Virus record (IMG/VR): IMGVR_UViG_3300045988_010208
Reading direction: 5' to 3' (one strand)
Source: a virus
Lineage: Duplodnaviria; Heunggongvirae; Uroviricota; Caudoviricetes
DNA length: 64,000 bases
The translations under genes and the position numbers were made by a program. Of this stretch, positions 46,374-58,703 are shown piece after piece. The notes beneath the pieces were generated by a model that was not told the DNA's origin, made no database searches, and saw only the letters and a list, made by a program, of their open reading frames with translations. Numbering within the stretch: the first letter of the stretch is position 1; each line of letters begins with the position of its first letter.

Positions 46374-46403
46374 TTGACAAGGGGCTTCAAAGCCCCTTAG
46401 AAT
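46374..46403 (+). promoter_or_regulatory. promoter-like element with hairpin in spacer
   Basis: TTGACA, then GGGGCTT-CAA-AGCCCC hairpin, then TAGAAT at 18-nt spacing; about 45 nt upstream of 46448. Confidence 0.4.
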
Positions 46404-50907: not shown

Positions 50908-51693
50908 ATGGGTATTGTAAAAATTATCAATGGCGATATCTTTGACGCATTTGATAAAGGTAAGTTTGACATCATTGGTCATGGTTGCAACTGTATGAAT
51001 TTCATGGGTGCAGGTATTGCAGCAACTATTTCTAAGCGTTATCCAAAAGTGTATGATACTGATACAGAAGTTTACCTGTTTGCAGGTGGCATTCGTCACA
51101 AACCCTGTGAAAATTTACTAGGCAATTTCTCTGTAGCACGTTTAAAACAAGGTCGTATAGCTAACCTTTACACCCAACTTCATACTGGTAAAGATGCCCG
51201 ATACAGTGCTTTAGAGTCATCTTTGAAACAGCTTAACAGATACTGTGAAGTTAACCAGTTGAAGAAAGTTGGCCTGCCTATGATTGGTGCAGGTATCGGT
51301 GGACTTGACCCTCAAGCTGTCACAGTTATCATCAATCAGGTGATGAAGAGCGTAGATGTTTACCTGTATGTCTACGAGGCAGAGATGTACAACAAGTTAC
51401 ACTCAGGTTGGAAGAACTACTGTGAACCAGAATACTTTGCGGGTGTAGTAGTGTTCACAGACAACACAGTTACCCTCTTCAGACGAAGAAAAGGTAAGAT
51501 ACATCAAAGTAACCCTCCGGTTGAAAAGATGTCTCTAAGTAACGCTCTAGTTACCCACCTGTCGAAGAGCAATCACAGAATTGCAGTAACATTTGGCAGT
51601 GATGCAGATACATATATCTATGCAAGAACTGATGAGGATGTTGAGGAAATTTTCTCTTCACCAGAAGTTACCTTCTTAGACGCAAAGAACTAA
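50908..51693 (+). CDS. macro-domain-like protein (putative ADP-ribose binding/processing)
   Basis: 261 aa; N-terminal IINGDIF...IIGHGCNCMNFMGAGIAATISKRYP pattern typical of macro/Appr-1-p-type domains; C-terminal 100 aa unassigned. Confidence 0.5.
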   Translation: MGIVKIINGDIFDAFDKGKFDIIGHGCNCMNFMGAGIAATISKRYPKVYDTDTEVYLFAGGIRHKPCENLLGNFSVARLKQGRIANLYTQLHTGKDARYSALESSLKQLNRYCEVNQLKKVGLPMIGAGIGGLDPQAVTVIINQVMKSVDVYLYVYEAEMYNKLHSGWKNYCEPEYFAGVVVFTDNTVTLFRRRKGKIHQSNPPVEKMSLSNALVTHLSKSNHRIAVTFGSDADTYIYARTDEDVEEIFSSPEVTFLDAKN

Positions 51694-51724
51694 GAAACTC
51701 TGTAGAATATTCACAATAGATTAA

Positions 51725-51768
51725 GCCTTTCTTATCTGGTAAATTTTTCAGGTAAGGAGGGCTTTTTT
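51725..51768 (+). terminator. terminator-like hairpin
   Basis: GCCUUUCUU ... AAGGAGGGC stem (two G-U pairs, long loop) followed by UUUUUU. Confidence 0.4.
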
Positions 51769-51775
51769 ATTTCAG

Positions 51776-51945
51776 AATTGTGCAGGTAGAGTTCTGTAGA
51801 GAAATCTGTAGAGAGAATTTTGAACTCCAAAGGGAAAATCCATTTTCAAGTTGTGCAGGTAATCTCCAAAGAGCTTTTTCATTTTCAAAACGTGCAGAGA
51901 AAAATCAGGTCGGGCAAGAAAAATCATTTTAGAATTGTGCAGGTA
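51776..51945 (+). promoter_or_regulatory. four spaced copies of motif AAAATC-ATTTTCA-RAATTGTGCAGGTA
   Basis: Copies near 51776-51788, 51849-51861, 51889-51900 (degenerate) and 51933-51945, in an ORF-free 420-bp region between the macro-domain gene and the small-gene array. Confidence 0.5.
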
Positions 51946-52121
51946 GGTGGGTGTAGGTGGGGATGTCACCATTTCTCACAAGGCTACCACATCCGAAAAG
52001 AAAAGTCAACAGAAAAATTTGTAGCGGATTGAAAAATAATTCTTGATTTGTGTTCTGTTTTGTGGTATTCGCGCGCACCCGTTTCATTGCATTTTTGCCA
52101 AAAATATTTTTAAAATTTTTC

Positions 52122-52180
52122 TTGACTATTCGAACGGGGTTATCTAGTATTTGCATCAACGGGGAGGAAATGACTTCCCC
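52122..52180 (+). promoter_or_regulatory. type-1 promoter-stem-loop cassette (copy 1)
   Basis: TTGACT -17 nt- TAGTAT, then hairpin GGGGAGG-AAATGA-CTTCCCC at the predicted transcript 5' end, then conserved leader to ATG 52214; AT-rich UP-like tract upstream. Confidence 0.65.
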
Positions 52181-52213
52181 ACTAAATAAACCCTTAAACT
52201 AGGAGATTCTAAA

Positions 52214-52597
52214 ATGGCATATCGTGCACCTAAATTCATCAATAAAGACAATTTCCGCAATGCACTGGAAAAATCACTTGATGAGAATTTTACAGGTCAG
52301 GTTATTGTTGTACACGCATTCAATTTTAAATATGACGTAAATGGTAACAGGATTAACCATTACACGGCAACCATGTTAGACGGTACTCTGTCAAGTGAAA
52401 AAGCCGTACTGAATGCACTTGCTGGACGTGGTAAAAACCTGATAAAATGCAATAAGAGACGTTATCAGGGCGGCGCATATGGTTACGATGATGCTGTTTA
52501 TCATCTTGAGAATATGGGCTATTCAGTGGAAAAAGCTGGAGTGTCTCAAATAATCGGTAGTGATGGTTATGTAACAATCTTCAAAATTAACGAATAA
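52214..52597 (+). CDS. hypothetical early protein
   Basis: 127-aa ORF with AGGAG RBS, preceded by a type-1 cassette. Confidence 0.5.
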   Translation: MAYRAPKFINKDNFRNALEKSLDENFTGQVIVVHAFNFKYDVNGNRINHYTATMLDGTLSSEKAVLNALAGRGKNLIKCNKRRYQGGAYGYDDAVYHLENMGYSVEKAGVSQIIGSDGYVTIFKINE

Positions 52598-52602
52598 AGT
52601 AC

Positions 52603-52638
52603 TTTACAAGGGGCTTATAGTTCGATAAAGTAAGCCCC
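52603..52638 (+). promoter_or_regulatory. type-2 stem-loop cassette (copy 1)
   Basis: TTTACA then hairpin GGGGCTTA-N13-TAAGCCCC, then conserved leader AGATAAAGAGCTTTACCACTAAATCCTAAA. Confidence 0.55.
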
Positions 52639-52683
52639 AGATAAAGAGCTTTACCACTAAATCCTAAATTGGAGAACTTAAAA

Positions 52684-52941
52684 ATGGCTATTATCAAAAA
52701 CGTTGTAATTCCTGCAAAAACTCGTGATGACGCTCGCGTTATGGCTAAAAAGTTATGCGGGAAAGTGGTTGACAACGGAAAACAATCTAATGTAAGGTGG
52801 GGCGTGAAGGCTGATAAACATTTAACCTTAAAACGCAGTTCAAATAACCTTTTTAAAGGTGTAAAAACACTCGGTAAAGTGAACGTATTCACTAAACAAG
52901 GTTACAAAATGCACTTATCATTAACTGGCAATTTAACCTGA
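52684..52941 (+). CDS. hypothetical early protein
   Basis: ORF-track start at 52669 is a TTG codon; ATG at 52684 (MAIIKNVV..) has a GGAG RBS at correct spacing; 85 aa. Confidence 0.5.
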   Translation: MAIIKNVVIPAKTRDDARVMAKKLCGKVVDNGKQSNVRWGVKADKHLTLKRSSNNLFKGVKTLGKVNVFTKQGYKMHLSLTGNLT

Positions 52942-52949
52942 TAAAGTAC

Positions 52950-52985
52950 TTTACAAGGGGCTTAAAAGTTGATATCTTAAGCCCC
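52950..52985 (+). promoter_or_regulatory. type-2 stem-loop cassette (copy 2)
   Basis: TTTACA + hairpin GGGGCTTAA-N11-TTAAGCCCC + conserved leader up to ATG 53030. Confidence 0.55.
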
Positions 52986-53029
52986 AGATAAAGAGCTTTA
53001 CCACTAAATCCTAAACTGGAGATTCAAAA

Positions 53030-53542
53030 ATGAAAACTGTAGACGCTACCTTTGAAGTTGTAAAAGAAAAATTCACCGTTATCTATGAAGCGGTAAATTG
53101 CTACGAAGCAAGCCATAATCTTGATAATTGGAAGTTTACAGATGACCATCAAGGCGGCGTGACTATTAAAAACCCTAACTGTCAGCGTAACGATTTTAAA
53201 TATGCAATCCCTTTAAATTATAGCCTTAAACAACTTTCTAGTGACTATGCAAAACAAGGCCGGGAAAACCCATCAAAACAGGCTTACATCAGCTTACAGA
53301 AAGAACTAGAAAGAGATTTAGAAGCTTCAGAATACAACCTTGCCGCGAAAGTTATCGATGCAAATGGTCAAACAATTTTAGACAGTTTTTATCTAGGATA
53401 TGCCTTTGATTGGTGCTATAGTGACGGTGATGATTTAGAGGATAGACTAAAAGAAGAGGTGAGTAATTCAGACGCAGAAACTGAAGTATTAGAACGTTTG
53501 GAATCATTAAAAGACTCAGTGATGAATATCTTTAAGAACTAA
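53030..53542 (+). CDS. hypothetical early protein (acidic)
   Basis: 170-aa ORF after a type-2 cassette. Confidence 0.5.
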   Translation: MKTVDATFEVVKEKFTVIYEAVNCYEASHNLDNWKFTDDHQGGVTIKNPNCQRNDFKYAIPLNYSLKQLSSDYAKQGRENPSKQAYISLQKELERDLEASEYNLAAKVIDANGQTILDSFYLGYAFDWCYSDGDDLEDRLKEEVSNSDAETEVLERLESLKDSVMNIFKN

Positions 53543-53551
53543 ATAGATTTC

Positions 53552-53586
53552 TTTACACGGGGTTATCAAGCTGATAAGATAGCCCC
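53552..53586 (+). promoter_or_regulatory. type-2 stem-loop cassette (copy 3, stem with compensatory change)
   Basis: TTTACA + hairpin GGGGTTATC-N10-GATAGCCCC (U-G replaces C-G of other copies) + leader to ATG 53631. Confidence 0.55.
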
Positions 53587-53630
53587 AGATAAAGAGCTTT
53601 ACTAACAACCTTAAACTAGGAGATTCTAAA

Positions 53631-53927
53631 ATGAAATTATCAAATAAAGTCCGTGAAAATCTAAGCAAGTTACTTAACAAAATTGATTTTATTGAGACAT
53701 CAAGGAATAGTCATGATGTTATGGAATGGTTACACGGAAAAATAAAAGGCCGTCGTGTAGTGATTTGCTTATGGAATAGTTGCAGGGAGTATAAAAAACC
53801 TGTATTGCAGGTCAATATTTATGATGATACTTTTAAAAGCCCTGTAAAGTCTAAAAGCGATTTATTAGAATCTTATGAGATAACTGTAAGTGGCAAAGTA
53901 TCACGTAAAGAGGAAACACCATGTTAA
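53631..53927 (+). CDS. hypothetical early protein
   Basis: 98-aa ORF after a type-2 cassette. Confidence 0.5.
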   Translation: MKLSNKVRENLSKLLNKIDFIETSRNSHDVMEWLHGKIKGRRVVICLWNSCREYKKPVLQVNIYDDTFKSPVKSKSDLLESYEITVSGKVSRKEETPC

Positions 53928-54253
53928 TGACTGGCATCACTGCAATCATTGCCATTCTCGCGCTTTATAAGGCATATAAAGCCTATAATCTAGCAAATAA
54001 GGCAATCACACAGCAGGTTAGCAATAACCTTGTAGAAAGCTTTCTAGGGCGCCTCAGTGATGAGCAAATAAAGCGGCTAGAGATGAGCTTCAGATATAAA
54101 GCGAAAACCTATCAGATAAGTGACATCTTCAAAGATGATTTTCAGTTAGTCGATGATTATAATTCACTGATAAATGCTTTAAATATCAGTGACTTGAAAG
54201 ACTATTACGCTGTAATTGTCCAAGAATTGAGCAAACGAAAACAAAGTGTTTGA
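53921..54253 (+). CDS. hypothetical early membrane protein
   Basis: 110 aa; N-terminal hydrophobic helix MLMTGITAIIAILALY; ATG overlaps upstream stop. Confidence 0.45.
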   Translation: MLMTGITAIIAILALYKAYKAYNLANKAITQQVSNNLVESFLGRLSDEQIKRLEMSFRYKAKTYQISDIFKDDFQLVDDYNSLINALNISDLKDYYAVIVQELSKRKQSV

Positions 54254-54309
54254 CACTGGTTTTTAGATAGATTAAATTACACATCAACGGGGAGGGAATG
54301 ACCTTCCCC
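54250..54309 (+). promoter_or_regulatory. type-1 promoter-stem-loop cassette (copy 2)
   Basis: TTGACA -17 nt- TAAATT, then hairpin GGGGAGGG-AATGA-CCTTCCCC, then leader to ATG 54345. Confidence 0.65.
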
Positions 54310-54344
54310 ACTAAGTAAAGTCCTTAAACTAGGAGATTCTAAAA

Positions 54345-54548
54345 ATGGCTATTATTAACGGCTTACACATTGAAGCTACACACATCAAAGATATTAAAGT
54401 TGGTGATGTAGTTCTCTTTCACGGCGTAGAAAAAACCGTCACGGCGAAAGATATCAAAGAGGATTCTTTCATGGGTAGGACTCTTTTCGGTGATTCTTAT
54501 TGCTTAGGTTACCTTGCAGTTTTAAAAGTTGTCAAAATTAACAAATAA
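54345..54548 (+). CDS. hypothetical early protein
   Basis: 67-aa ORF, AGGAG RBS. Confidence 0.5.
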   Translation: MAIINGLHIEATHIKDIKVGDVVLFHGVEKTVTAKDIKEDSFMGRTLFGDSYCLGYLAVLKVVKINK

Positions 54549-54553
54549 AGTAC

Positions 54554-54589
54554 TTTACAAGGGGCTTAAAAGTTGTTACCTTAAGCCCC
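54554..54589 (+). promoter_or_regulatory. type-2 stem-loop cassette (copy 4)
   Basis: TTTACA + hairpin GGGGCTTAA-N11-TTAAGCCCC + leader to ATG 54635. Confidence 0.55.
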
Positions 54590-54634
54590 AGATAAAGAGC
54601 TTTACCACTAAATCCTAAACTGGAGATTCAAAAA

Positions 54635-55177
54635 ATGAAATGCTTTCACGGTACTACTCAAGAAAACTTTATCAACCTGATTAATAATGGTGATAAGCCA
54701 TCAGGTGCATGGAATTGTTCGGATATGGATGGCAATTTTTACGTATACCCAGAAAATAAAATTTATGGTGACGATGAGGAAGAGATAGTATCCGAAGGTA
54801 TTCAACAGGCGTTAGGAAATGCCACTATCACGGCAGCTTTCCAGATGAAAACCCAAAACATTGTTATCTTGGAACTTGATATTCCAGAGGATGAATTAAA
54901 TGATGATTATTCTTGTGATAATATGTCTGGCGTAGCAAGTTTTACAGAATACTTCGATTTAAATTGGATTAAAAAGGTTTACGTAACCGAGTTTAATGCG
55001 ATGTTTTCGCCTTTTTGTCTTCCTTCATTGGATAACCCGAATTTAAACTATCTTGATGAGTCTCTGGAACTTCTTGCTAAAAGCGTTCAACAGTCGGACA
55101 GTATTCAGGTTTTTTGTGACATCATGGATACACTGGCAGGAAACATCGCAGAAGAGGATTTAAAGAGCTTTTTTTAA
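54635..55177 (+). CDS. hypothetical early protein (acidic)
   Basis: 180-aa ORF after a type-2 cassette. Confidence 0.5.
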   Translation: MKCFHGTTQENFINLINNGDKPSGAWNCSDMDGNFYVYPENKIYGDDEEEIVSEGIQQALGNATITAAFQMKTQNIVILELDIPEDELNDDYSCDNMSGVASFTEYFDLNWIKKVYVTEFNAMFSPFCLPSLDNPNLNYLDESLELLAKSVQQSDSIQVFCDIMDTLAGNIAEEDLKSFF

Positions 55178-55243
55178 AAACCTATGTAATCACCTTATAA
55201 ACACTAATCAGCCCCTTGTAGGGGCTTTTAGAGGACTTAAATC

Positions 55244-55477
55244 ATGCTTACAACCGTTTATCTCATCCTCTCAATTTGTAATGGTCATTCATGCGATTTT
55301 AAAGGGCTTGAAGAGTTTACAGGAAGTAAAGAAAATGCCATTCAGGTGTGCCAGATAGCAAGACAAGACTACCCCGCCAGTGACGACATTCAATGCTACT
55401 TTAAAACAGAAGATGACGACGGAATCTATTTCGACAGTGTTGATGGTCAATATGAAATTATCATTGAAAAAGACTAG
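55244..55477 (+). CDS. hypothetical early protein
   Basis: 77-aa ORF; upstream hairpin-like AGCCCCTTGTAGGGGCT. Confidence 0.45.
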   Translation: MLTTVYLILSICNGHSCDFKGLEEFTGSKENAIQVCQIARQDYPASDDIQCYFKTEDDDGIYFDSVDGQYEIIIEKD

Positions 55478-55534
55478 ACAAGCCTGATAAAAGTCTGTAA
55501 ATTGTCAATCAACGGGGAGGGAATGACCTTCCCC
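55475..55534 (+). promoter_or_regulatory. type-1 promoter-stem-loop cassette (copy 3)
   Basis: TAGACA (overlapping the stop of 55244-55477) -17 nt- TAAATT, then hairpin GGGGAGGG-AATGA-CCTTCCCC, leader to ATG 55569. Confidence 0.6.
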
Positions 55535-55568
55535 ACTACATAAAACCCTTAAACTAGGAGATTCAAAA

Positions 55569-55910
55569 ATGGCTTATGTAACCGTAATTACCGATAAAGC
55601 TGACTCATCTTGGTCAACTCAAGTAAGTGATAAGATGACACCTATGCAGTGCCTAAAATACTTTGAGCAATGGAATAAAGGCGAGGATGTAAGCCCCTTC
55701 CAAGTGATGCAGATTATCCATACAGATAACGAAGGGAAGAAAACAACTCTGAATAGTGAGTACTACGCAAGCCGTTTTGAAACGAGAAGTAAAACAATGA
55801 AGCTCTTACGTGAATCCGGTTATCCTCATATTGCCGCTCTAATCTGGGATGACCTGTTAAAAAGTCAGCGTATCAGCTATGTAAAACCTGAAAAAATATT
55901 CATCAGTTAA
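55569..55910 (+). CDS. hypothetical early protein
   Basis: 113-aa ORF after a type-1 cassette. Confidence 0.5.
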   Translation: MAYVTVITDKADSSWSTQVSDKMTPMQCLKYFEQWNKGEDVSPFQVMQIIHTDNEGKKTTLNSEYYASRFETRSKTMKLLRESGYPHIAALIWDDLLKSQRISYVKPEKIFIS

Positions 55911-56039
55911 TCAATAACTTATAAAAAACTTTTAAAAAAGTGTTGACAATACCTCTTGACATTGGTAACTTTGTTCGAGGGGGTTTATCTAAAAGGGATT
56001 CACTTAAAAGATTCTTTATAGATAAGCTTAAAAAATTGC

Positions 56040-56095
56040 TTGCAATCAGCTATCAAAACAAGTAAATTACTAATCAACGGGAGGGATAACCTCCC
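56040..56095 (+). promoter_or_regulatory. type-1 promoter-stem-loop cassette (copy 4, shortened stem)
   Basis: TTGCAA -17 nt- TAAATT, then hairpin GGGAGG-GATAA-CCTCCC (one base pair lost from both arms), leader to ATG 56130; extra TTGACA motifs at 55940-55980. Confidence 0.6.
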
Positions 56096-56129
56096 CACTA
56101 AATAAAATCCTTAAACTAGGAGAGTCAAA

Positions 56130-56660
56130 ATGAACAAGTTTAAAGCTATCAACTACATTCGTTCAAATGCTGTAATGTCTAAGCCTGTTAAAGACACATA
56201 TGAGTTCCGTTGTAATGGGGTACACTTTGCAACCATCACCAAATCAGAAAACGGGGCTTATTATGTACATCGTCGTAATGTTGCAACCGTTGTAGTCTCT
56301 CACTTTATGCAATCTGTAGCGGAACTATTGCCGTTATTCTTAGAAATTTATCTAGATGAGTGTAAAAACGTTCGTAACCACGTTAAAAACCTTTTAAACG
56401 GTTATAAAATGGCTTATGAACGTTCTATCAAGTCCTTAAACAAGTTCTATAAAGCCCCTGTAAATACTGTTTCAATGGCCTACAGTGTAAGCGGTGAGTT
56501 GGTTAGCCTCTTCGAAGTGGAAGAAATCGAACTCTATGACTCACGTCCTAGCGGTTACTCTAAGACTCTAGGAGAAGGTTTAACCTTCAATATCAAGAAC
56601 TTAGAAAAAACTTTAAAAGATATTGAAAAAGATATTGACGAAACAATCAAAAGTCTGTAA
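56130..56660 (+). CDS. hypothetical early protein
   Basis: 176-aa ORF; its last codons overlap the next cassette promoter. Confidence 0.5.
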   Translation: MNKFKAINYIRSNAVMSKPVKDTYEFRCNGVHFATITKSENGAYYVHRRNVATVVVSHFMQSVAELLPLFLEIYLDECKNVRNHVKNLLNGYKMAYERSIKSLNKFYKAPVNTVSMAYSVSGELVSLFEVEEIELYDSRPSGYSKTLGEGLTFNIKNLEKTLKDIEKDIDETIKSL

Positions 56661-56694
56661 ATTGTCAATCAACGGGGAGGGAATGACCTTCCCC
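56635..56694 (+). promoter_or_regulatory. type-1 promoter-stem-loop cassette (copy 5)
   Basis: TTGACG -17 nt- TAAATT (overlapping stop of 56130-56660), then hairpin GGGGAGGG-AATGA-CCTTCCCC, leader to ATG 56740. Confidence 0.6.
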
Positions 56695-56739
56695 ACTAAA
56701 TAAAACCATTAATCAACTTCCTAAACTGGAGATTCTAAA

Positions 56740-56988
56740 ATGGCTACTATCCGCGCAACTGTTAACGAATTTGGCTTCTACTCTCTGGACGTTAAATTTG
56801 ACCTTGTAGGTACTGATAACGCCTTTGAAATGGTGAAAGGCCTTATCAGCCAGACCATCAGTGACTACAACCCCTCTGATGAATTCTGGAAAGAAACAAA
56901 ACAGGAAGCTCTCAAAGAGGGTTATACATACCACTACTGGGGTGAAAAAATTGTCTCCCTGTACTACGACAAAGAAGGCACTAACTAA
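56740..56988 (+). CDS. hypothetical early protein
   Basis: 82-aa ORF, last gene of the plus-strand array. Confidence 0.5.
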   Translation: MATIRATVNEFGFYSLDVKFDLVGTDNAFEMVKGLISQTISDYNPSDEFWKETKQEALKEGYTYHYWGEKIVSLYYDKEGTN

Positions 56989-57025
56989 ACGCCGCAACGG
57001 GGCTAAATAGCCCCAGATACCTTAA

Positions 57026-57051
57026 CAGCCCCGTTTAAGGGGCTTTTTTAC
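57026..57051 (+). terminator. intrinsic terminator ending the plus-strand array
   Basis: AGCCCC-GUUUAA-GGGGCU hairpin followed by UUUUUU; preceded by a cassette-like GGGGCT-AAAT-AGCCCC remnant (56999-57014). Confidence 0.65.
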
Positions 57052-58703
57052 GTCTATCAAATTCCTTTCCAGAATCTTAAAACCCACCTAACAAGTCAGA
57101 ACTTTACCACTGATTCGATAGAATCTATCCCAGACCTTAAAAAATAATAACTCTATAGTCTACTCTATAGCATTTTATCAAATCAACTTAAATATAAGCC
57201 CATAACCCGAAAGGGAAGGGCAACCCCTTAAACGCTCTATAAAGCTCTATAACAGCCTTATCAACCTAACTTAAGCAATCATATTAACCCACTCTAAAAA
57301 GCCCTTCCTAGAGCTTCCCAGAGCCTTAAAAGAATCTTATAAGGGTGTAAGCTTTATCATCTCGTTAGTATTCTTGTGAATATCTAAAAAGGACTTGTTA
57401 GTGTCTTAAAAGTATGTTATAGGGGCTTAAAAGTTACGTAAAAGTAGCTTAAAAGTTACGTAAATGCTAGCCCCCTTAACATTTTCTTAACAATTTCTTA
57501 ACAAACCCTACATAGTTATGCTTTTAAGGCACTTGTTAGCCCCTTGTTAAATCTCTGTTAAGACCACGTAAAAGCCTTGTAAGAGTCTTTGACATAGCCT
57601 TTAAAGCTCCTGTAAAGCCCTATAAAGAGGTGTCTGTATAGTTGGGGTGTAACTACTAGGAAGAGACTTAAAAGGGGCTATACAGAGCTTTTAAGAGGGC
57701 TATTTAGAGAATCACTAAGAGGAGAAGGGAACGATAAGAAAGAAGAGTTGTGTTTGTAAACAACCACTGTGACCATGTTAATAGCTTGTTAAAAAGATTA
57801 AACACTTGTTAGAAACTTGTTAATTATCTTAACAAAATAACTCTTTAAAATTAACTTGTTAGCTCTTGTTAGTCATCTGTTAAGATTCTGTAAAGCCTAT
57901 TCAGCACTTGTTAGGAAACTGTTACAGCCTTGTTAGTTCTGTTAAGAAACTGTTAAGACCTTTGAAGAGTTGTTAAGAAGATGTGAGAACTGTTAAGAGA
58001 TTGTTAAGGATATTTTAAAATTTTGCAAAGTACTTGTAAGGGAGCTGTTAAGGGCTACCAAGCAGATATACATCTTCTACAGATATTTTTGAGTTCCTTC
58101 AAAGACCCTAAAAAATGACTTGATAGTCCTATTTTATAAAAATTTTAAGATTTTGAATAATTACCTATACAGTCTTTTAAAAATACAGGTAGAAACAGGC
58201 TTATAAGATACCTTGTTAATACCGTGTTAGACCTTGTGAGATAAGGTCTGTAAAGATATTCCTGTTAAGTTTGTTAAAACAGTCTATATAGAGGTTTAGT
58301 AATACCTAGTGAACACCTATAGAGGGTATCATAGCTGACATAATGGGTTACTGTTAAGTAACACAGATAACCTAGAGATTAAGAGGTGTATAGGAGCTTC
58401 TAAGAGGGTGTAGAGGGATGATTAAGGTGATTGTATAGGTTGTTAAGAAGGCTTGTTAGAAGAGTGTTTAGAAGGCTTGTTAGAGGGCTAGTTAGAAGGG
58501 TTATACAGAGGGGCTATTAAGACCACTAGATAGTTACTAAGATACTATATAGTACTATATAACTATATAGAGAGTAAGATTAAGAAGGTTGTTAAGAAGG
58601 GTAGATATTTTATTCACATATGATGGTGACCCAGAGGTTGGGACAACCAATAAAATTTTATAAAAATTAAAAAGCCCCCAATTAAGGAGGCTCTTAAGAT
58701 ATT
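57052..58703. repeat. ORF-free region dense in short degenerate direct repeats
   Basis: About 1.65 kb with no ORF of 60 aa or more on either strand; roughly 35 copies of YTGTTARR (CTTGTTAG, CTGTTAAG, TTGTTAAG), many CTATAKAG-type copies, a 17-bp direct repeat CTTAAAAGTTACGTAAA x2 near 57428-57465, TATATAG clusters near 58540-58570. Confidence 0.8.

What the first reader, a model, noticed from the sequence alone, without database searches (positions are those of the whole stretch)
52100..57051. Array of 11 small orphan genes, each behind a conserved promoter / 5' stem-loop / leader cassette (PeSL-like modular early region)
Seen: eleven co-directional ORFs (67-180 aa, no recognisable domains) are each preceded by one of two cassette types. 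Type 1 (5 copies): a sigma70-like promoter with 17-nt spacer, then a hairpin GGGGAGGG-AATGA-CCTTCCCC about 10 nt after the -10, then a near-identical leader (ACTAAATAAAACCCTTAAACTAGGAGATTCTAAAATG). Type 2 (4 copies): TTTACA directly followed by hairpin GGGGCTTAA-N11-13-TTAAGCCCC and leader AGATAAAGAGCTTTACCACTAAATCCTAAACTGGAGATTCAAAAATG. The stems vary between copies in compensating ways (one base pair lost from both arms in copy 56079-56095; C-G replaced by U-G in copy 53559-53586), which argues for a selected RNA structure. The hairpins lack a U-tract, so they are not classical terminators. Established knowledge: similar promoter-early-stem-loop cassettes flank shuffled early genes in T4-type phages. 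Inference: this is a plastic early/host-takeover locus and a good place to look for new anti-defence or host-shutoff proteins.
Basis: partly seen in the sequence, partly recalled or inferred. Interest (0 to 1): 0.8.

Follow-up and report, generated by a model that had tools for sequence, protein, structure and literature searches.

The report
Promoter-hairpin gene cassettes in Felix O1-like phage
A Felix O1-type phage carries a run of small unknown genes, most with its own near-identical promoter, RNA hairpin and ribosome-site unit, and related phages gain, lose and swap genes at these units, as described for "PeSL" cassettes in T4-type phages.

Summary
The window is a Felix O1-like phage (Ounavirinae). 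The array corresponds to Felix O1 genes 14-23, between terminators t13 and t23. Nine of the eleven ORFs follow a cassette (5 T1, 4 T2).

Correction: T2 is also a sigma70-type promoter. TTTACA is its -35 and a TAnnnT -10 lies 17-18 nt downstream, inside the hairpin (113 of 114 distinct copies). The T2 hairpin therefore lies upstream of its own predicted start, as in T4-type PeSLs. Only T1 places the hairpin at the mRNA 5' end, 10 nt after the -10 in 125 of 128 copies.

T2 stems covary strongly (82 distinct copies, four genera), and U.G pairs make the structure + strand-specific. The T2 flanks add a lower helix of about 11 bp.

Related genomes differ by whole cassette-plus-gene units, and crossovers map inside cassettes.

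The Felix O1 genome paper lists the cassette cores only as "direct repeats".

Verdict: a PeSL-like modular region, a new member of a known kind. RNA-level roles (5' stabiliser, attenuator or processing site) are inferred. One ORF (180 aa) has a weakly supported ADP-ribosyltransferase-like fold.

The parts
51723..51764 (+). Rho-independent terminator (Felix O1 't13') that closes the upstream unit and marks the left edge of the array
   Evidence: 17-pair stem plus T-run. The sequence matches t13 in Table 2 of PMC3185647.
52122..52213 (+). T1 cassette 1. -35 TTGACT 52122-52127; 17-nt spacer; -10 TAGTAT 52145-52150; hairpin 52161-52180; leader and SD; ATG at 52214
   Evidence: E 1.4e-20
52214..52597 (+). 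ORF fam8, 127 aa, PHROG 4495, unknown function
52595..52683 (+). T2 cassette 1. A/T tract; -35 TTTACA 52603-52608; hairpin 52610-52638 containing -10 TAAAGT 52626-52631; lower-helix arms 52595-52606 and 52642-52653; leader and SD; ATG at 52684
   Evidence: E 7e-25
52684..52941 (+). ORF fam12, 85 aa, pI 10.6, PHROG 5089
52942..53029 (+). T2 cassette 2. TTTACA 52950-52955; hairpin 52957-52985; -10 TATCTT 52973-52978
   Evidence: E 5e-27
53030..53542 (+). ORF fam10, 170 aa, acidic (pI 4.55), PHROG 4190
53544..53630 (+). T2 cassette 3. TTTACA 53552-53557; hairpin 53559-53586 (TTATC/GATAG variant with U.G at pair 5); -10 TAAGAT 53575-53580. Chimeric: it carries the T1-type SD (CTAGGAG)
53631..54253 (+). 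ORFs fam13 (98 aa, 53631-53927) and fam9 (110 aa, 53921-54253, N-terminal hydrophobic helix). They overlap by 7 nt and have no cassette between them. The stop TGA of fam9 lies inside the next -35
54250..54344 (+). T1 cassette 2. TTGACA 54250-54255; -10 TAAATT 54273-54278; hairpin 54289-54309. This is the site of the T1-to-T1 deletion relative to phage garuso
   Evidence: E 3e-27
54345..54548 (+). ORF fam1, 67 aa. It has 82-105 aa paralogues in related phages
54546..54634 (+). T2 cassette 4. TTTACA 54554-54559; hairpin 54561-54589; -10 TACCTT 54577-54582
   Evidence: E 4e-26
54635..55177 (+). ORF fam4, 180 aa, pI 4.05. Candidate ADP-ribosyltransferase-like fold (nearly invariant H5; invariant Y36/Y38 and E80)
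55210..55226 (+). Hairpin AGCCCC-TTGTA-GGGGCT followed by TTT. It is a weak terminator-like element, not a T1 or T2 cassette, and precedes ORF fam5
   Evidence: Annotated 'terminator' in phage Tribble.
55244..55477 (+). ORF fam5, 77 aa, acidic. Its stop TAG lies inside the next -35 (TAGACA)
55475..55568 (+). T1 cassette 3. TAGACA 55475-55480; -10 TAAATT 55498-55503; hairpin 55514-55534
   Evidence: E 1e-25
55569..55910 (+). ORF fam2, 113 aa
55943..56039 (+). Conserved noncoding unit. Promoter TTGACA 55943-55948 / TAACTT 55966-55971, with the hairpin CCTCTTGACA...TGTTCGAGGGG around the -10, then a second stem-loop. Possible small RNA or structured leader
   Evidence: No Rfam match.
56040..56129 (+). 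T1 cassette 4. TTGCAA 56040-56045; -10 TAAATT 56063-56068; short hairpin 56079-56095 (6 bp)
   Evidence: E 9e-20
56130..56660 (+). ORF fam3, 176 aa. Its last codons encode the next promoter, and its stop TAA lies inside that promoter's -10
56635..56739 (+). T1 cassette 5. TTGACG 56635-56640; -10 TAAATT 56658-56663; hairpin 56674-56694. Chimeric: a longer leader with the T2-type SD (CTGGAG)
   Evidence: E 1e-21
56740..56988 (+). ORF fam6, 82 aa
56999..57050 (+). Solo cassette remnant CAAC-GGGGCT-AAAT-AGCCCC-AGATACC (56999-57014) with no gene behind it, then the Rho-independent terminator t23 (57027-57044 plus T-run). This is the right edge of the array
   Evidence: t23 is listed in PMC3185647.
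46374..46403 (+). Isolated PeSL-type promoter outside the array, between the 788-aa and 369-aa ORFs (probably rIIA and rIIB). TTGACA 46374-46379; hairpin GGGGCTT-CAA-AAGCCCC 46381-46397 filling the spacer; -10 TAGAAT 46398-46403

Best explanation
What it is (shown from sequence). The region is a hyperplastic block of a Felix O1-like phage, built from self-contained expression cassettes. Each cassette holds:
- a host sigma70-type promoter (A/T-rich upstream tract, -35, 17-nt spacer, -10);
- a G/C-clamped stem-loop;
- an A/U-rich leader;
- a strong GGAG Shine-Dalgarno 7-10 nt before the ATG.
There are two layouts.

T1 (inferred role). The stem-loop starts 10 nt after the -10, so it should form 2-3 nt from the 5' end of the mRNA. 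There it most likely protects the message from 5'-end-dependent decay, as the ompA and T7 phi10 leaders do.

T2 (inferred role). The stem-loop lies between the -35 and +1 and contains the -10. It is therefore absent from RNA started at that promoter and present only in RNA reading through from upstream. In that RNA it tops a two-tier helix of about 20 bp. This most likely attenuates read-through or forms a 3' barrier or processing site. Either way it would insulate neighbouring units, the role proposed for T4-type PeSL stem-loops.

DNA level (shown by comparison). The 85-110-bp near-identical cassettes act as portable homology. Recombination between them deletes, inserts and reassorts gene units, and each gene keeps its own promoter and ribosome site. 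This generates the gene-content diversity seen across Ounavirinae.
For: Identity and bounds.
- 258 Felix O1-like records match the region, and none is collinear over 80% or more of it.
- The array lies between Felix O1 terminators t13 and t23.

Promoters.
- The T1 and T2 hexamers are found by the consensus scan.
- In T2, TTTACA is invariant. The only invariant loop positions are the T, A and T of TAnnnT.
- 113 of 114 distinct T2 copies keep TAnnnT at 17 or 18 nt.
- Felix O1 and VpaE1 reboot from naked DNA in E. coli cell-free extract (PMC10933291).

RNA structure.
- T2 upper stem: 98.8% of cells are paired and 3 pairs are compensated; 0 of 500 shuffles reach this; slid controls give 58% or less.
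- With 82 distinct copies from four genera, 5 pairs show double-sided changes, including G-C to U-A at pair 3 in Kolesnikvirus.
- Pair 5 is U.G in about half of the copies, so the structure is + strand-specific.
- The lower helix is 95.6% paired, and one pair covaries (GC 56, UA 13).
- T1: the hairpin starts exactly 10 nt after the -10 in 125 of 128 copies.
- 58 distinct T1 variants, including unrelated stem families, all fold at the same place. MFE is -16 to -22 kcal/mol, z about -2.2.

Modularity.
- Gene-family maps differ by whole cassette-plus-gene units.
- 35 of 51 homology breakpoints fall in cassettes, which make up 20% of the region.
- The window lacks exactly one T1-to-T1 unit relative to garuso. 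LF82P3 lacks a T2-to-T2 block. Both crossovers lie inside cassettes.
- The same gene sits behind T1 or T2 in different genomes. Hairpin type and SD type occur in all four combinations.

Spread and precedent.
- T2 occurs in 289 phage records and T1 in 246, all Ounavirinae apart from a few records with inconsistent organism names (e.g. the 147-kb 'Staphylococcus phage SA1' record).
- The published PeSL definition matches (PMC2839356). RB49 PeSLs read directly show the same layout.
Against: - No transcript 5' or 3' ends are known for any Felix O1-like phage. Start sites, and so '5'-terminal', are predicted from promoter geometry only.
- The hairpins lack U-tracts, so attenuation is not predicted by classical terminator rules.
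- T1 stems vary mostly by G-C to G.U changes and by indels, which is weak covariation.
- The lower T2 helix rests on a single covarying pair. Part of its complementarity follows from each flank being a palindrome (TAAAG..CTTTA).
- Breakpoint enrichment equals enrichment for intergenic DNA (21% noncoding). Selection against gene disruption alone would give some of it.
- The copies are related, so the shuffle controls overstate significance.
- RT-PCR timing in Felix O1 is mixed between early and middle.
Confidence: 0.7

Rival explanations
1. The T2 element is chiefly an RNase III-type processing site, like those between T7 early genes. The two-tier helix in polycistronic read-through RNA would be cut in the 3' side of its internal loop. 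That leaves the upstream mRNA with a protective 3' hairpin. It also gives the downstream mRNA the same 5' end (AGAUAAAG...) as transcripts started at the embedded promoter.
For: - The geometry fits: a lower helix of 11 bp with a 1x1 mismatch, a 3x3 internal loop, a 9-10 bp upper stem and a 9-14 nt loop.
- The predicted promoter start coincides with the 3' side of the internal loop.
- There is no U-tract, so the element is not a classical terminator.
- T7 early RNase III sites have a similar two-stem shape (own knowledge).
Against: - The lower helix has only one covarying pair.
- It is absent from the second Kolesnikvirus hairpin type (GGGGTTA.../...TAACCCC followed by GTCGAAAC).
- It is absent from T1.
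- No cleavage data exist.
- A helix of about 20 bp interrupted twice is near the lower limit for E. coli RNase III (own knowledge).
Confidence: 0.3
2. The hairpins and the conserved leader are binding sites for a phage-encoded RNA-binding regulator. Candidates are an antiterminator of the lambda N/nut kind, or a translational repressor or endonuclease of the T4 RegA/RegB kind. Such a factor would switch the whole set of early genes on or off together.
For: - The same leader and SD context (CC[U]-UAAACU-[A]GGAG) is shared by both cassette types, with linked indels that keep a small SD-proximal hairpin.
- T1 hairpins sit just downstream of promoters, as nut sites do.
- Some T1 loops are GNRA-like (GAAA in the Mooglevirus locus).
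Against: - T1 loop sequences vary freely (AATGA, GATGA, CGATAA, GAAA, AAGCAA) and whole stems are replaced. This argues against sequence-specific recognition.
- No boxA-like motif is present in any cassette (read directly).
- No candidate regulator has been identified.
- The array has a promoter before almost every gene and only weak terminators, so antitermination is not needed.
Confidence: 0.1
3. These are ordinary intergenic promoters and leftover hairpins, copied along with gene duplications. The cassettes have no function of their own in RNA biology or in recombination.
For: - Some genes in the array are paralogues (fam1 occurs twice in most genomes).
- Record annotators called the elements only 'DR' direct repeats (wV8) or 'terminator' (KhF2, KhF3). 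The Felix O1 paper likewise lists them only as direct repeats.
Against: - The genes between cassettes are mostly unrelated, yet the cassettes are 80-100% identical.
- Stems covary across four genera.
- Hairpin position is fixed to the nucleotide.
- Deletions have their junctions in cassette homology.
- Cassette parts reassort independently of the downstream gene.
Confidence: 0.07
4. The palindromes act at the DNA level and the RNA fold is incidental. They could be cruciforms, recombination hot spots, nuclease or homing sites, or replication or packaging signals.
For: - Recombination junctions map to the cassettes.
- In RB49 one crossover was mapped to a PeSL loop (PMC2839356).
Against: - U.G (T.G) pairs occur in about half of T2 copies, and G.U pairs in T1 stems. 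On the other strand these would be C.A mismatches, so the selected pairing is strand-specific.
- All cassettes have one orientation, co-directional with the genes.
Confidence: 0.05

Closest known systems
PeSL (promoter-early stem-loop) cassettes of T4-type phages RB49/phi1, PST and nt-1 (Arbiol et al. 2010, PMC2839356; Comeau et al. 2014, PMC4122927)
   Same: - A sigma70-like promoter with an A/T-rich upstream tract.
- A G-run/C-run stem-loop between the -35 and -10, or overlapping the -10. Here this applies to T2, the 46374 promoter and the Kolesnikvirus promoters.
- The SD and ATG sit at the 3' end of the cassette.
- Cassettes lie in front of small genes of unknown function in a hyperplastic region.
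- Indels between related genomes have junctions in the cassettes.
- Some shared sequence strings: AAAAAGT(T/G)N-TT(G/T)ACA, CCCATCGAAAC, AACTAGGAGA(A/T)TCAA.
   Different: - The host lineage is Ounavirinae, not Straboviridae.
- T1 places the stem-loop 10 nt downstream of the -10, inside the transcript. The PeSL papers do not describe that layout.
- T2 has an additional lower helix formed by its flanks.
- Promoter, terminator and mini-circle activities were shown experimentally for PeSLs and have not been tested here.
- Sequence similarity to RB49 PeSLs is borderline (best E 9e-5, for one Kolesnikvirus cassette). Homology versus convergence on host signals is unresolved.
5'-terminal stabilising stem-loops of bacterial and phage mRNAs (ompA 5' UTR; T7 phi10 leader as used in pET vectors). 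Own knowledge, not checked in papers here.
   Same: T1 has a stable hairpin (-12 to -17 kcal/mol) predicted within 2-3 nt of the 5' end. It is followed by an unstructured A/U-rich leader and a strong SD.
   Different: - The promoter is host sigma70-type, not T7.
- The 5' end is predicted, not mapped.
- The stabilising effect is untested.
- The element is repeated in front of many genes and also serves as recombination homology.
RNase III processing sites between T7 early genes (R0.3 to R1.3). Own knowledge.
   Same: Intergenic position in an early, co-directional gene block. A two-stem helix with an internal loop and no U-tract.
   Different: - The helix is shorter and more interrupted.
- It overlaps a promoter.
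- Cleavage has not been tested.
- T7 early genes share upstream promoters rather than having one promoter each.
Intrinsic (Rho-independent) terminators
   Same: A G/C-rich stem-loop directly after a stop codon. KhF2 and KhF3 records annotate T1 as 'terminator'.
   Different: No U-tract. The downstream 8 nt are A-rich (ACUAAAUA, AGAUAAAG), and the scan does not call them. Genuine terminators with T-runs flank the array (t13, t23).
Integron gene cassettes (the analogy drawn by the PeSL authors)
   Same: Small promoter-served ORF units that are gained, lost and reordered at conserved boundary repeats.
   Different: No integrase and no attC-type site. Exchange is presumably by general homologous recombination. 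Each unit carries its own promoter.

Membership tests
T4-type PeSL cassette | sigma70-like -35/-10 promoter with an A/T-rich tract upstream | tested here: met
   - T1: TTGACA-like hexamer, 17 nt, TAAATT or TAGTAT.
- T2: TTTACA, 17-18 nt, TAnnnT in 113 of 114 distinct copies, preceded by (A/T)AAAGT.
This is sequence evidence only; promoter activity was not measured.
T4-type PeSL cassette | Stem-loop with G-run/C-run arms placed between the -35 and -10, or overlapping the -10 | tested here: met
   - Met for T2: the 5' arm is in the spacer, the -10 is in the loop and 3' arm, and the CCCC forms the discriminator.
- Met for the promoter at 46374 and for the Kolesnikvirus promoters.
- Not met for T1, whose hairpin starts 10 nt after the -10.
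- The layout of RB49 PeSLs was read directly for comparison.
T4-type PeSL cassette | The 3' end of the cassette carries the Shine-Dalgarno and the start codon of the downstream gene | tested here: met
   GGAG lies 7-10 nt before the ATG in all 115 distinct leaders.
T4-type PeSL cassette | Clustered in a hyperplastic region in front of small genes of unknown function | tested here: met
   - Nine cassettes lie within 4.9 kb, and none elsewhere in the 64-kb window or in Felix O1 13-45 kb.
- No Pfam domains.
- All PHROG matches are 'unknown function'.
T4-type PeSL cassette | Insertions, deletions and replacements between related genomes have their junctions in the cassettes | tested here: met
   - 35 of 51 breakpoints fall in cassettes.
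- T1-to-T1 and T2-to-T2 deletions have crossovers inside the cassettes.
- Cassette type is swapped in front of the same gene.
Caveat: cassettes make up nearly all of the intergenic DNA.
T4-type PeSL cassette | Demonstrated promoter and terminator activity, and formation of mini-circles by recombination between cassettes | not testable with these tools
   Needs reporter fusions and inverse PCR on infected cells, as done in PMC2839356.
T4-type PeSL cassette | Sequence homology to the RB49/phi1 PeSL consensus | tested here: inconclusive
   A profile of 16 RB49 PeSLs was searched.
- Best hits are Kolesnikvirus cassettes, at E 9e-5 and 0.0035.
- Felix-type T1 scores E of about 0.1-5.
- There are 36 weak hits in 204 kb of Ounavirinae against 2 in 609 kb of unrelated contigs.
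Convergence on host signals is not excluded.
Intrinsic terminator | G/C-rich hairpin followed directly by a U-tract | tested here: not met
   None of the nine cassette hairpins is called. The downstream sequence is A-rich.
5'-terminal stabilising stem-loop (ompA / T7 phi10 type) | Stable hairpin no more than about 4 nt from the mRNA 5' end | tested here: inconclusive
   The geometry fits if transcription starts 7-8 nt after the -10. There are 3 unpaired nt in 53 of 58 variants. No 5'-end data exist.
5'-terminal stabilising stem-loop (ompA / T7 phi10 type) | Removing the hairpin shortens mRNA half-life in an RNase E- or RppH-dependent way | not testable with these tools
   Needs half-life measurements with stem mutants.
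RNase III processing site (T7 early type) | About two helical turns of mostly paired RNA with an internal loop | tested here: met
   T2 in read-through RNA has 11 + 9-10 bp separated by a 3x3 loop. Pairing is 93-97% over 27-82 distinct copies. Support for the lower helix is modest.
RNase III processing site (T7 early type) | Cleavage by RNase III in vivo or in vitro | not testable with these tools
   Needs an rnc host comparison or an in vitro assay.
lambda-type nut site | boxA motif (CGCTCTTA-like) next to a boxB hairpin with a conserved GNRNA-type loop | tested here: not met
   No boxA-like string appears in any of the 94 cassette sequences. Loops are not conserved.
ADP-ribosyltransferase fold (for the 180-aa ORF, 54635-55177) | ART beta-sandwich core | tested here: inconclusive
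   - The AF2 model is weak (pLDDT 58, pTM 0.54).
- The Foldseek list is also ART-rich, but every hit has E >= 0.07.
ADP-ribosyltransferase fold (for the 180-aa ORF, 54635-55177) | Conserved catalytic residues (H-Y-E or R-S-E) | tested here: inconclusive
   H5 (in FHGT) is nearly invariant, and Y36/Y38 (FYVY) and E80 (ILELD) are invariant in 15 homologues. All lie on predicted strands. Their equivalence to the catalytic triad was not verified by superposition.
ADP-ribosyltransferase fold (for the 180-aa ORF, 54635-55177) | Match to a curated ART sequence family | tested here: not met
   There is no ART family among the Pfam matches, even at E <= 5, for any of 15 members.

The most novel reading that the evidence does not exclude
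The T2 cassette is a dual-entry module. A promoter and an RNA processing site (RNase III-type or phage-encoded) are superimposed, so that primary transcripts and processed read-through transcripts acquire the same 5' end and leader. The upstream message is left with a protective 3' hairpin. Each shuffled gene would then be expressed at a set level wherever it lands. In addition, these cassettes and the T4-type PeSLs would belong to one cross-family pool of mobile regulatory cassettes, exchanged between unrelated enterobacterial phages.
Probability: 0.2. Interest if true: 0.7.

Novelty: new member of a known kind. Interest (0 to 1): 0.5.

Why it matters
- **Felix O1 transcription.** The Felix O1 genome paper states that how transcription proceeds and is timed in this phage is unknown, and it found no promoters in this region. 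These cassettes supply nine concrete candidate host-type promoters in a 5-kb block, plus further ones nearby. They also give a testable model for how each small gene is expressed.
- **Generality of PeSLs.** Composite promoter/stem-loop cassettes that drive modular gene shuffling are not confined to T4-type phages. They occur more than 1,300 times in about 290 sequenced Ounavirinae, a group widely used for Salmonella and E. coli typing, biocontrol and therapy.
- **Practical use.** Cassette boundaries mark natural, permissive insertion and deletion points for phage engineering.
- **Gene discovery.** The variable genes between cassettes are candidates for host-interaction functions. One is a possible ADP-ribosyltransferase, close to a macro-domain gene.

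Tried and rejected
- **Rfam** (7.8 kb, E <= 1) gave only two sub-threshold chance matches.
- **Pfam** on 10 ORFs, and on 15 homologues of the 180-aa ORF, gave nothing above threshold. PHROGs gave only 'unknown function' families.
- **Classical terminator reading of the hairpins:** rejected, because there is no U-tract.
- **An alternative promoter upstream of the T2 hairpin** (TAAAGT as the -10), which would make T2 a 5' hairpin like T1: rejected. No conserved -35 exists at the right distance, because that sequence is the variable end of different upstream genes (read).
- **lambda nut-like reading:** no boxA, and the loops are not conserved.
- **MAFFT alignment of natural T2 sequences** put a gap inside the 3' arm and broke the pairing register. 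I replaced it with flank-anchored constructs.
- **IMG/VR scan with a 15-mer**: contigs with single hits lacked the full cassette and were chance matches.
- **Literature:** no transcriptome or 5'-end data for Felix O1-like phages. The wV8 paper does not mention repeats or promoters. No paper links PeSLs to Felix O1-like phages.
- **Homology of the cassettes to RB49 PeSLs** was tested and left open.
- **Position of the terminal repeats** relative to the array was not resolved.

Full report
**Where the window comes from.** The 5-kb region matches 258 phage records, almost all Felix O1-like (Felixounavirus and other Ounavirinae). No record aligns collinearly over 80% or more of it, so the locus is mosaic. 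It corresponds to Felix O1 genes 14-23. On the left it is bounded by the terminator that the Felix O1 genome paper calls t13 (window 51723-51764). On the right it is bounded by t23 (57027-57050). That paper lists the cores of both cassette types only as unexplained 'direct repeats' between genes 15/16, 19/20, 18/19 and 20/21. It reports no promoters here and says that transcription and its timing in this phage are not understood.

**Checking the observation.** Eleven co-directional ORFs lie at 52214-56988. Profiles built only from cassette copies of related phages recover exactly five T1 copies (E <= 9e-20) and four T2 copies (E <= 4e-21) in the window. They find nothing comparable elsewhere in the 64 kb or in the part of the Felix O1 genome the window does not cover. 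Shuffled sequence gives no matches. So nine of the eleven ORFs follow a cassette.
- The ORF at 53921 overlaps its upstream neighbour by 7 nt and has no cassette.
- The ORF at 55244 follows a different, weak terminator-like hairpin (55210-55226).
- None of the ten ORFs scanned has a Pfam domain, and all ten fall in PHROG families of unknown function; the eleventh (56740-56988) was not scanned.

**T1 anatomy.** Each T1 has a TTGACA-like -35, a 17-nt spacer and a -10 (TAAATT or TAGTAT). Across all loci the hairpin starts exactly 10 nt after the -10 in 125 of 128 copies. If transcription starts at the usual 7-8 nt after the -10, the RNA begins AAC-GGGGAGGG..., with 3 unpaired nucleotides in 53 of 58 distinct variants. 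All 58 variants fold into a 4-8 bp hairpin at that position. They include unrelated stem families (GGGGAGG/CCTCCCC, GGGGC-AAGCAA-GCCCC, GGGA/TCCC). So the presence and position of the hairpin are conserved, not its sequence. The stems contain G.U pairs, which work only on the + strand. The upstream genes are packed against these promoters. Stop codons lie inside the -35 (54251-54253 and 55475-55477) or inside the -10 (56658-56660).

**T2 anatomy: the main correction.** In fact TTTACA is a -35. Seventeen nucleotides later there is a TAnnnT hexamer inside the hairpin loop and 3' arm (TAAAGT, TATCTT, TAAGAT, TACCTT). In the natural alignment, the only invariant positions between the stem arms are exactly that T, A and T. 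Of 114 distinct T2 sequences from 57 loci, 113 keep TAnnnT at 17 or 18 nt. The predicted start is therefore the A directly after the CCCC. The T2 hairpin is not part of its own transcript and appears only in RNA that reads through from upstream. [quoted passage not shown]

**RNA structure of T2.** MAFFT misplaced a gap in the 3' arm. I therefore defined the arms only by distance from the invariant flanks.
- In 19 distinct copies, the 9-bp upper stem is 98.8% paired with three fully compensated pairs. None of 500 shuffles reaches this, and sliding the partner by one column drops pairing to 58% or less.
- Adding IMG/VR contigs and two Kolesnikvirus phages gives 82 distinct copies from four genera. 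Five pairs then show double-sided changes. These include G-C to U-A at pair 3, which is invariant elsewhere.
- Pair 5 is U.G in about half of the copies. That would be a C.A mismatch on the other strand, so the selected structure is on the + strand, most simply in RNA.
- Folding the read-through RNA showed that the conserved flanks also pair (upstream TAAAGTACTTTA with downstream TAAAGAGCTTTA). This gives a lower helix of 11 bp with a 1x1 mismatch, separated from the upper stem by a 3x3 internal loop.
- The lower helix is 95.6% paired and has one covarying pair (GC 56, UA 13, GU 3). I rate it probable, not proven. Each flank is itself a palindrome, and there are few independent changes.

**Modularity.** A gene-family map of the window and ten related loci from three genera shows that genomes differ by whole cassette-plus-gene units.
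- Of 51 homology breakpoints inside the array, 35 fall within 10 nt of a cassette, and cassettes occupy 20% of the region. The caveat is that cassettes make up nearly all the noncoding DNA (21%).
- Two deletions carry a clear signature. Relative to phage garuso, the window lacks exactly one T1-to-T1 unit (a 90-aa paralogue, a T2 cassette and a 134-aa gene). The window matches garuso's upstream copy up to the cassette and its downstream copy from the ATG onward.
- LF82P3 lacks the block between T2 cassette 1 and T2 cassette 4 of the window. It switches partner between the hairpin and the ATG.
- The same downstream gene sits behind different cassettes in different genomes. For example fam8 follows T1 in the window but T2 in SP2, LF110P1, LF82P3, fBSPA4, garuso and PC79-13.
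- For T1, loop type and SD type occur in all four combinations, which indicates exchange within cassettes.

**Distribution.** T2 occurs in 289 phage records, about 4.7 copies each, and T1 in 246. The records cover Felixounavirus, Mooglevirus, Suspvirus and, for T2, Kolesnikvirus. Existing records label the elements 'DR' or 'terminator'. I found no paper that interprets them as promoter cassettes or links PeSLs to Felix O1-like phages. The search covers open-access literature only.

**Expression evidence from the literature.**
- Felix O1 end-point RT-PCR puts ORFs 16, 20, 21 and 22 at maximum 5 min after infection, and ORFs 14, 17, 19 and 23 at 25 min. The block is early to middle, not uniformly early.
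- Felix O1 and VpaE1 produce phage from purified DNA in E. coli cell-free extract. Host RNA polymerase alone can therefore start the program.
- No 5'-end or RNA-seq data were found.

**Most likely mechanism.**
- Shown from sequence: every cassette has a complete sigma70-type promoter, a conserved + strand hairpin at a fixed position, and a strong ribosome site.
- Shown from comparison: the cassettes are where gene units are exchanged.
- Inferred: the T1 hairpin is a 5'-terminal stabiliser, like those of the ompA and T7 phi10 leaders.
- Inferred: the T2 hairpin, and any cassette hairpin met by read-through RNA, attenuates transcription or forms a 3' barrier. That would insulate neighbouring units, as proposed and partly shown for PeSL stem-loops.
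- Live alternative for T2 (about 0.3, and not exclusive): the two-tier helix is an RNase III-type processing site, like those between T7 early genes. Cleavage in the 3' side of the internal loop would give the same 5' end as the embedded promoter.
- Less likely: a regulator-binding site, a DNA-level function, or no function at all. The reasons are in the rivals section.

**Comparison with PeSLs using real sequence.** I read the RB49 hyperplastic region directly. A typical RB49 PeSL is AAAAAGTTG-TTGACA-GGGGATCACCGATCCCC-TATAAT-ACACCCATACCGAAACGAA...AGGAGAATCAAA-ATG. Other RB49 PeSLs have the -10 inside the loop (GGGGGTAG-TAATAT-ACCCCC). The architecture is the same as T2, as the isolated promoter at 46374-46403, and as the Kolesnikvirus promoters. 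Some strings are shared: CCCATCGAAAC in Kolesnikvirus, and AACTAGGAGA(A/T)TCAA in Felix-type leaders. A profile of 16 RB49 PeSLs hits two Kolesnikvirus cassettes (E 9e-5 and 0.0035). It gives 36 weak hits in 204 kb of Ounavirinae against 2 in 609 kb of unrelated viral contigs. That control is imperfect, because those contigs come from viruses of other hosts. Common descent or transfer versus convergence on E. coli signals stays open.

- three further acidic proteins (pI 4.05-4.55);
- one very basic protein (pI 10.6);
- one protein with an N-terminal hydrophobic helix.

**Verdict.** This is a new member of a known kind, in a different phage subfamily. It has one layout (T1) and one structural feature (the T2 lower helix) not described for PeSLs. 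Interest is moderate. It is a clean, testable model for early-gene expression and gene shuffling in a widely used phage group, but it is not a new principle.

Noticed in passing
[not shown]
   Followed up: partly
window 50908-51693: A 261-aa macro-domain protein lies immediately upstream of the array. It is annotated 'phosphatase' in Felix O1 and 'macro domain' in Silverhawkium. A macro domain next to a possible ADP-ribosyltransferase suggests an ADP-ribosylation writer/eraser pair.
   Followed up: no
window 55911-56129: A 220-nt noncoding stretch is nearly invariant across genera. It holds a strong promoter (TTGACA 55943 / TAACTT 55966) with a hairpin around its -10 (consensus CCCCTTGACA...TGTTCGAGGGG; CCTCTTGACA in the window). 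A second conserved stem-loop (UUUAUCUAAAAGGGAUU...GAUUCUUUAUAGAUAAG) follows, directly upstream of the next T1 promoter. It may be a small RNA or a structured leader. Rfam has no match, and there is too little variation for covariation analysis.
   Followed up: partly
window 46374-46403: An isolated promoter lies between the 788-aa and 369-aa ORFs (probably rIIA and rIIB). The hairpin GGGGCTT-CAA-AAGCCCC fills the spacer between TTGACA and TAGAAT. This is the canonical RB49-type PeSL layout, outside the array.
   Followed up: partly
window 51765-52100: Four copies of a (G/A)TTGTGCAGGTA-like motif (about 51779, 51852, 51889, 51936) lie in the 350-nt noncoding stretch between terminator t13 and the first T1 promoter. 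They are conserved in relatives. They could be regulator sites or iterons.
   Followed up: no
window 57051-58700: About 1.7 kb of noncoding DNA follows terminator t23. It is full of short repeats (CTTAAAAG, GTTACGTAAAAG, CTCTATA) and separates the array from the opposite-strand genes. Related records annotate repeat regions here. It may hold the terminal repeat, a packaging signal or an origin.
   Followed up: no
window 56999-57014: A solo cassette remnant, CAAC-GGGGCT-AAAT-AGCCCC-AGATACC, has T1-type upstream context and T2-type downstream context and no gene behind it. It is conserved in Felix O1, fBSPA4 and garuso. It is probably the scar of a cassette-mediated deletion.
   Followed up: partly
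all cassette leaders, e.g. window 52190-52206 and 53006-53020: The two SD variants differ by two linked single-base indels: CC[T]-TAAACT-[A]GGAG. Counts are 202 copies with neither, 132 with both, 4 with only the A and 0 with only the T. Together they add one U-A pair to a small hairpin that covers the first two Gs of the SD. The sites are only 7 nt apart, so simple linkage could explain the pattern.
   Followed up: partly
L132 3547-9990 and L133 746-7500 (Kolesnikvirus phages): The Erwinia and Cronobacter phage arrays use the same design with diverged parts. The stems are GGTG.../...CACC, the SD is AAAGGAA or ACAGGAA instead of GGAG, and the leader is CCCC-(A/G)TCGAAACAA. That leader resembles the RB49 PeSL leader CCCATCGAAACGAA.
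   Followed up: partly
window 54345-54548; L008 2731-3003 and 3595-3798: fam1 is present as two paralogues (90 aa and 67 aa) in most relatives, flanking a 134-aa gene. The window keeps only the 67-aa copy. The shared first codons (MAIING...) extend the T1 homology used in the deletion.
   Followed up: partly
hit H14 (GU169904.1): A 147-kb record named 'Staphylococcus phage SA1' carries this Felix O1-like region at 92% identity. The record is probably chimeric or contaminated.
   Followed up: no
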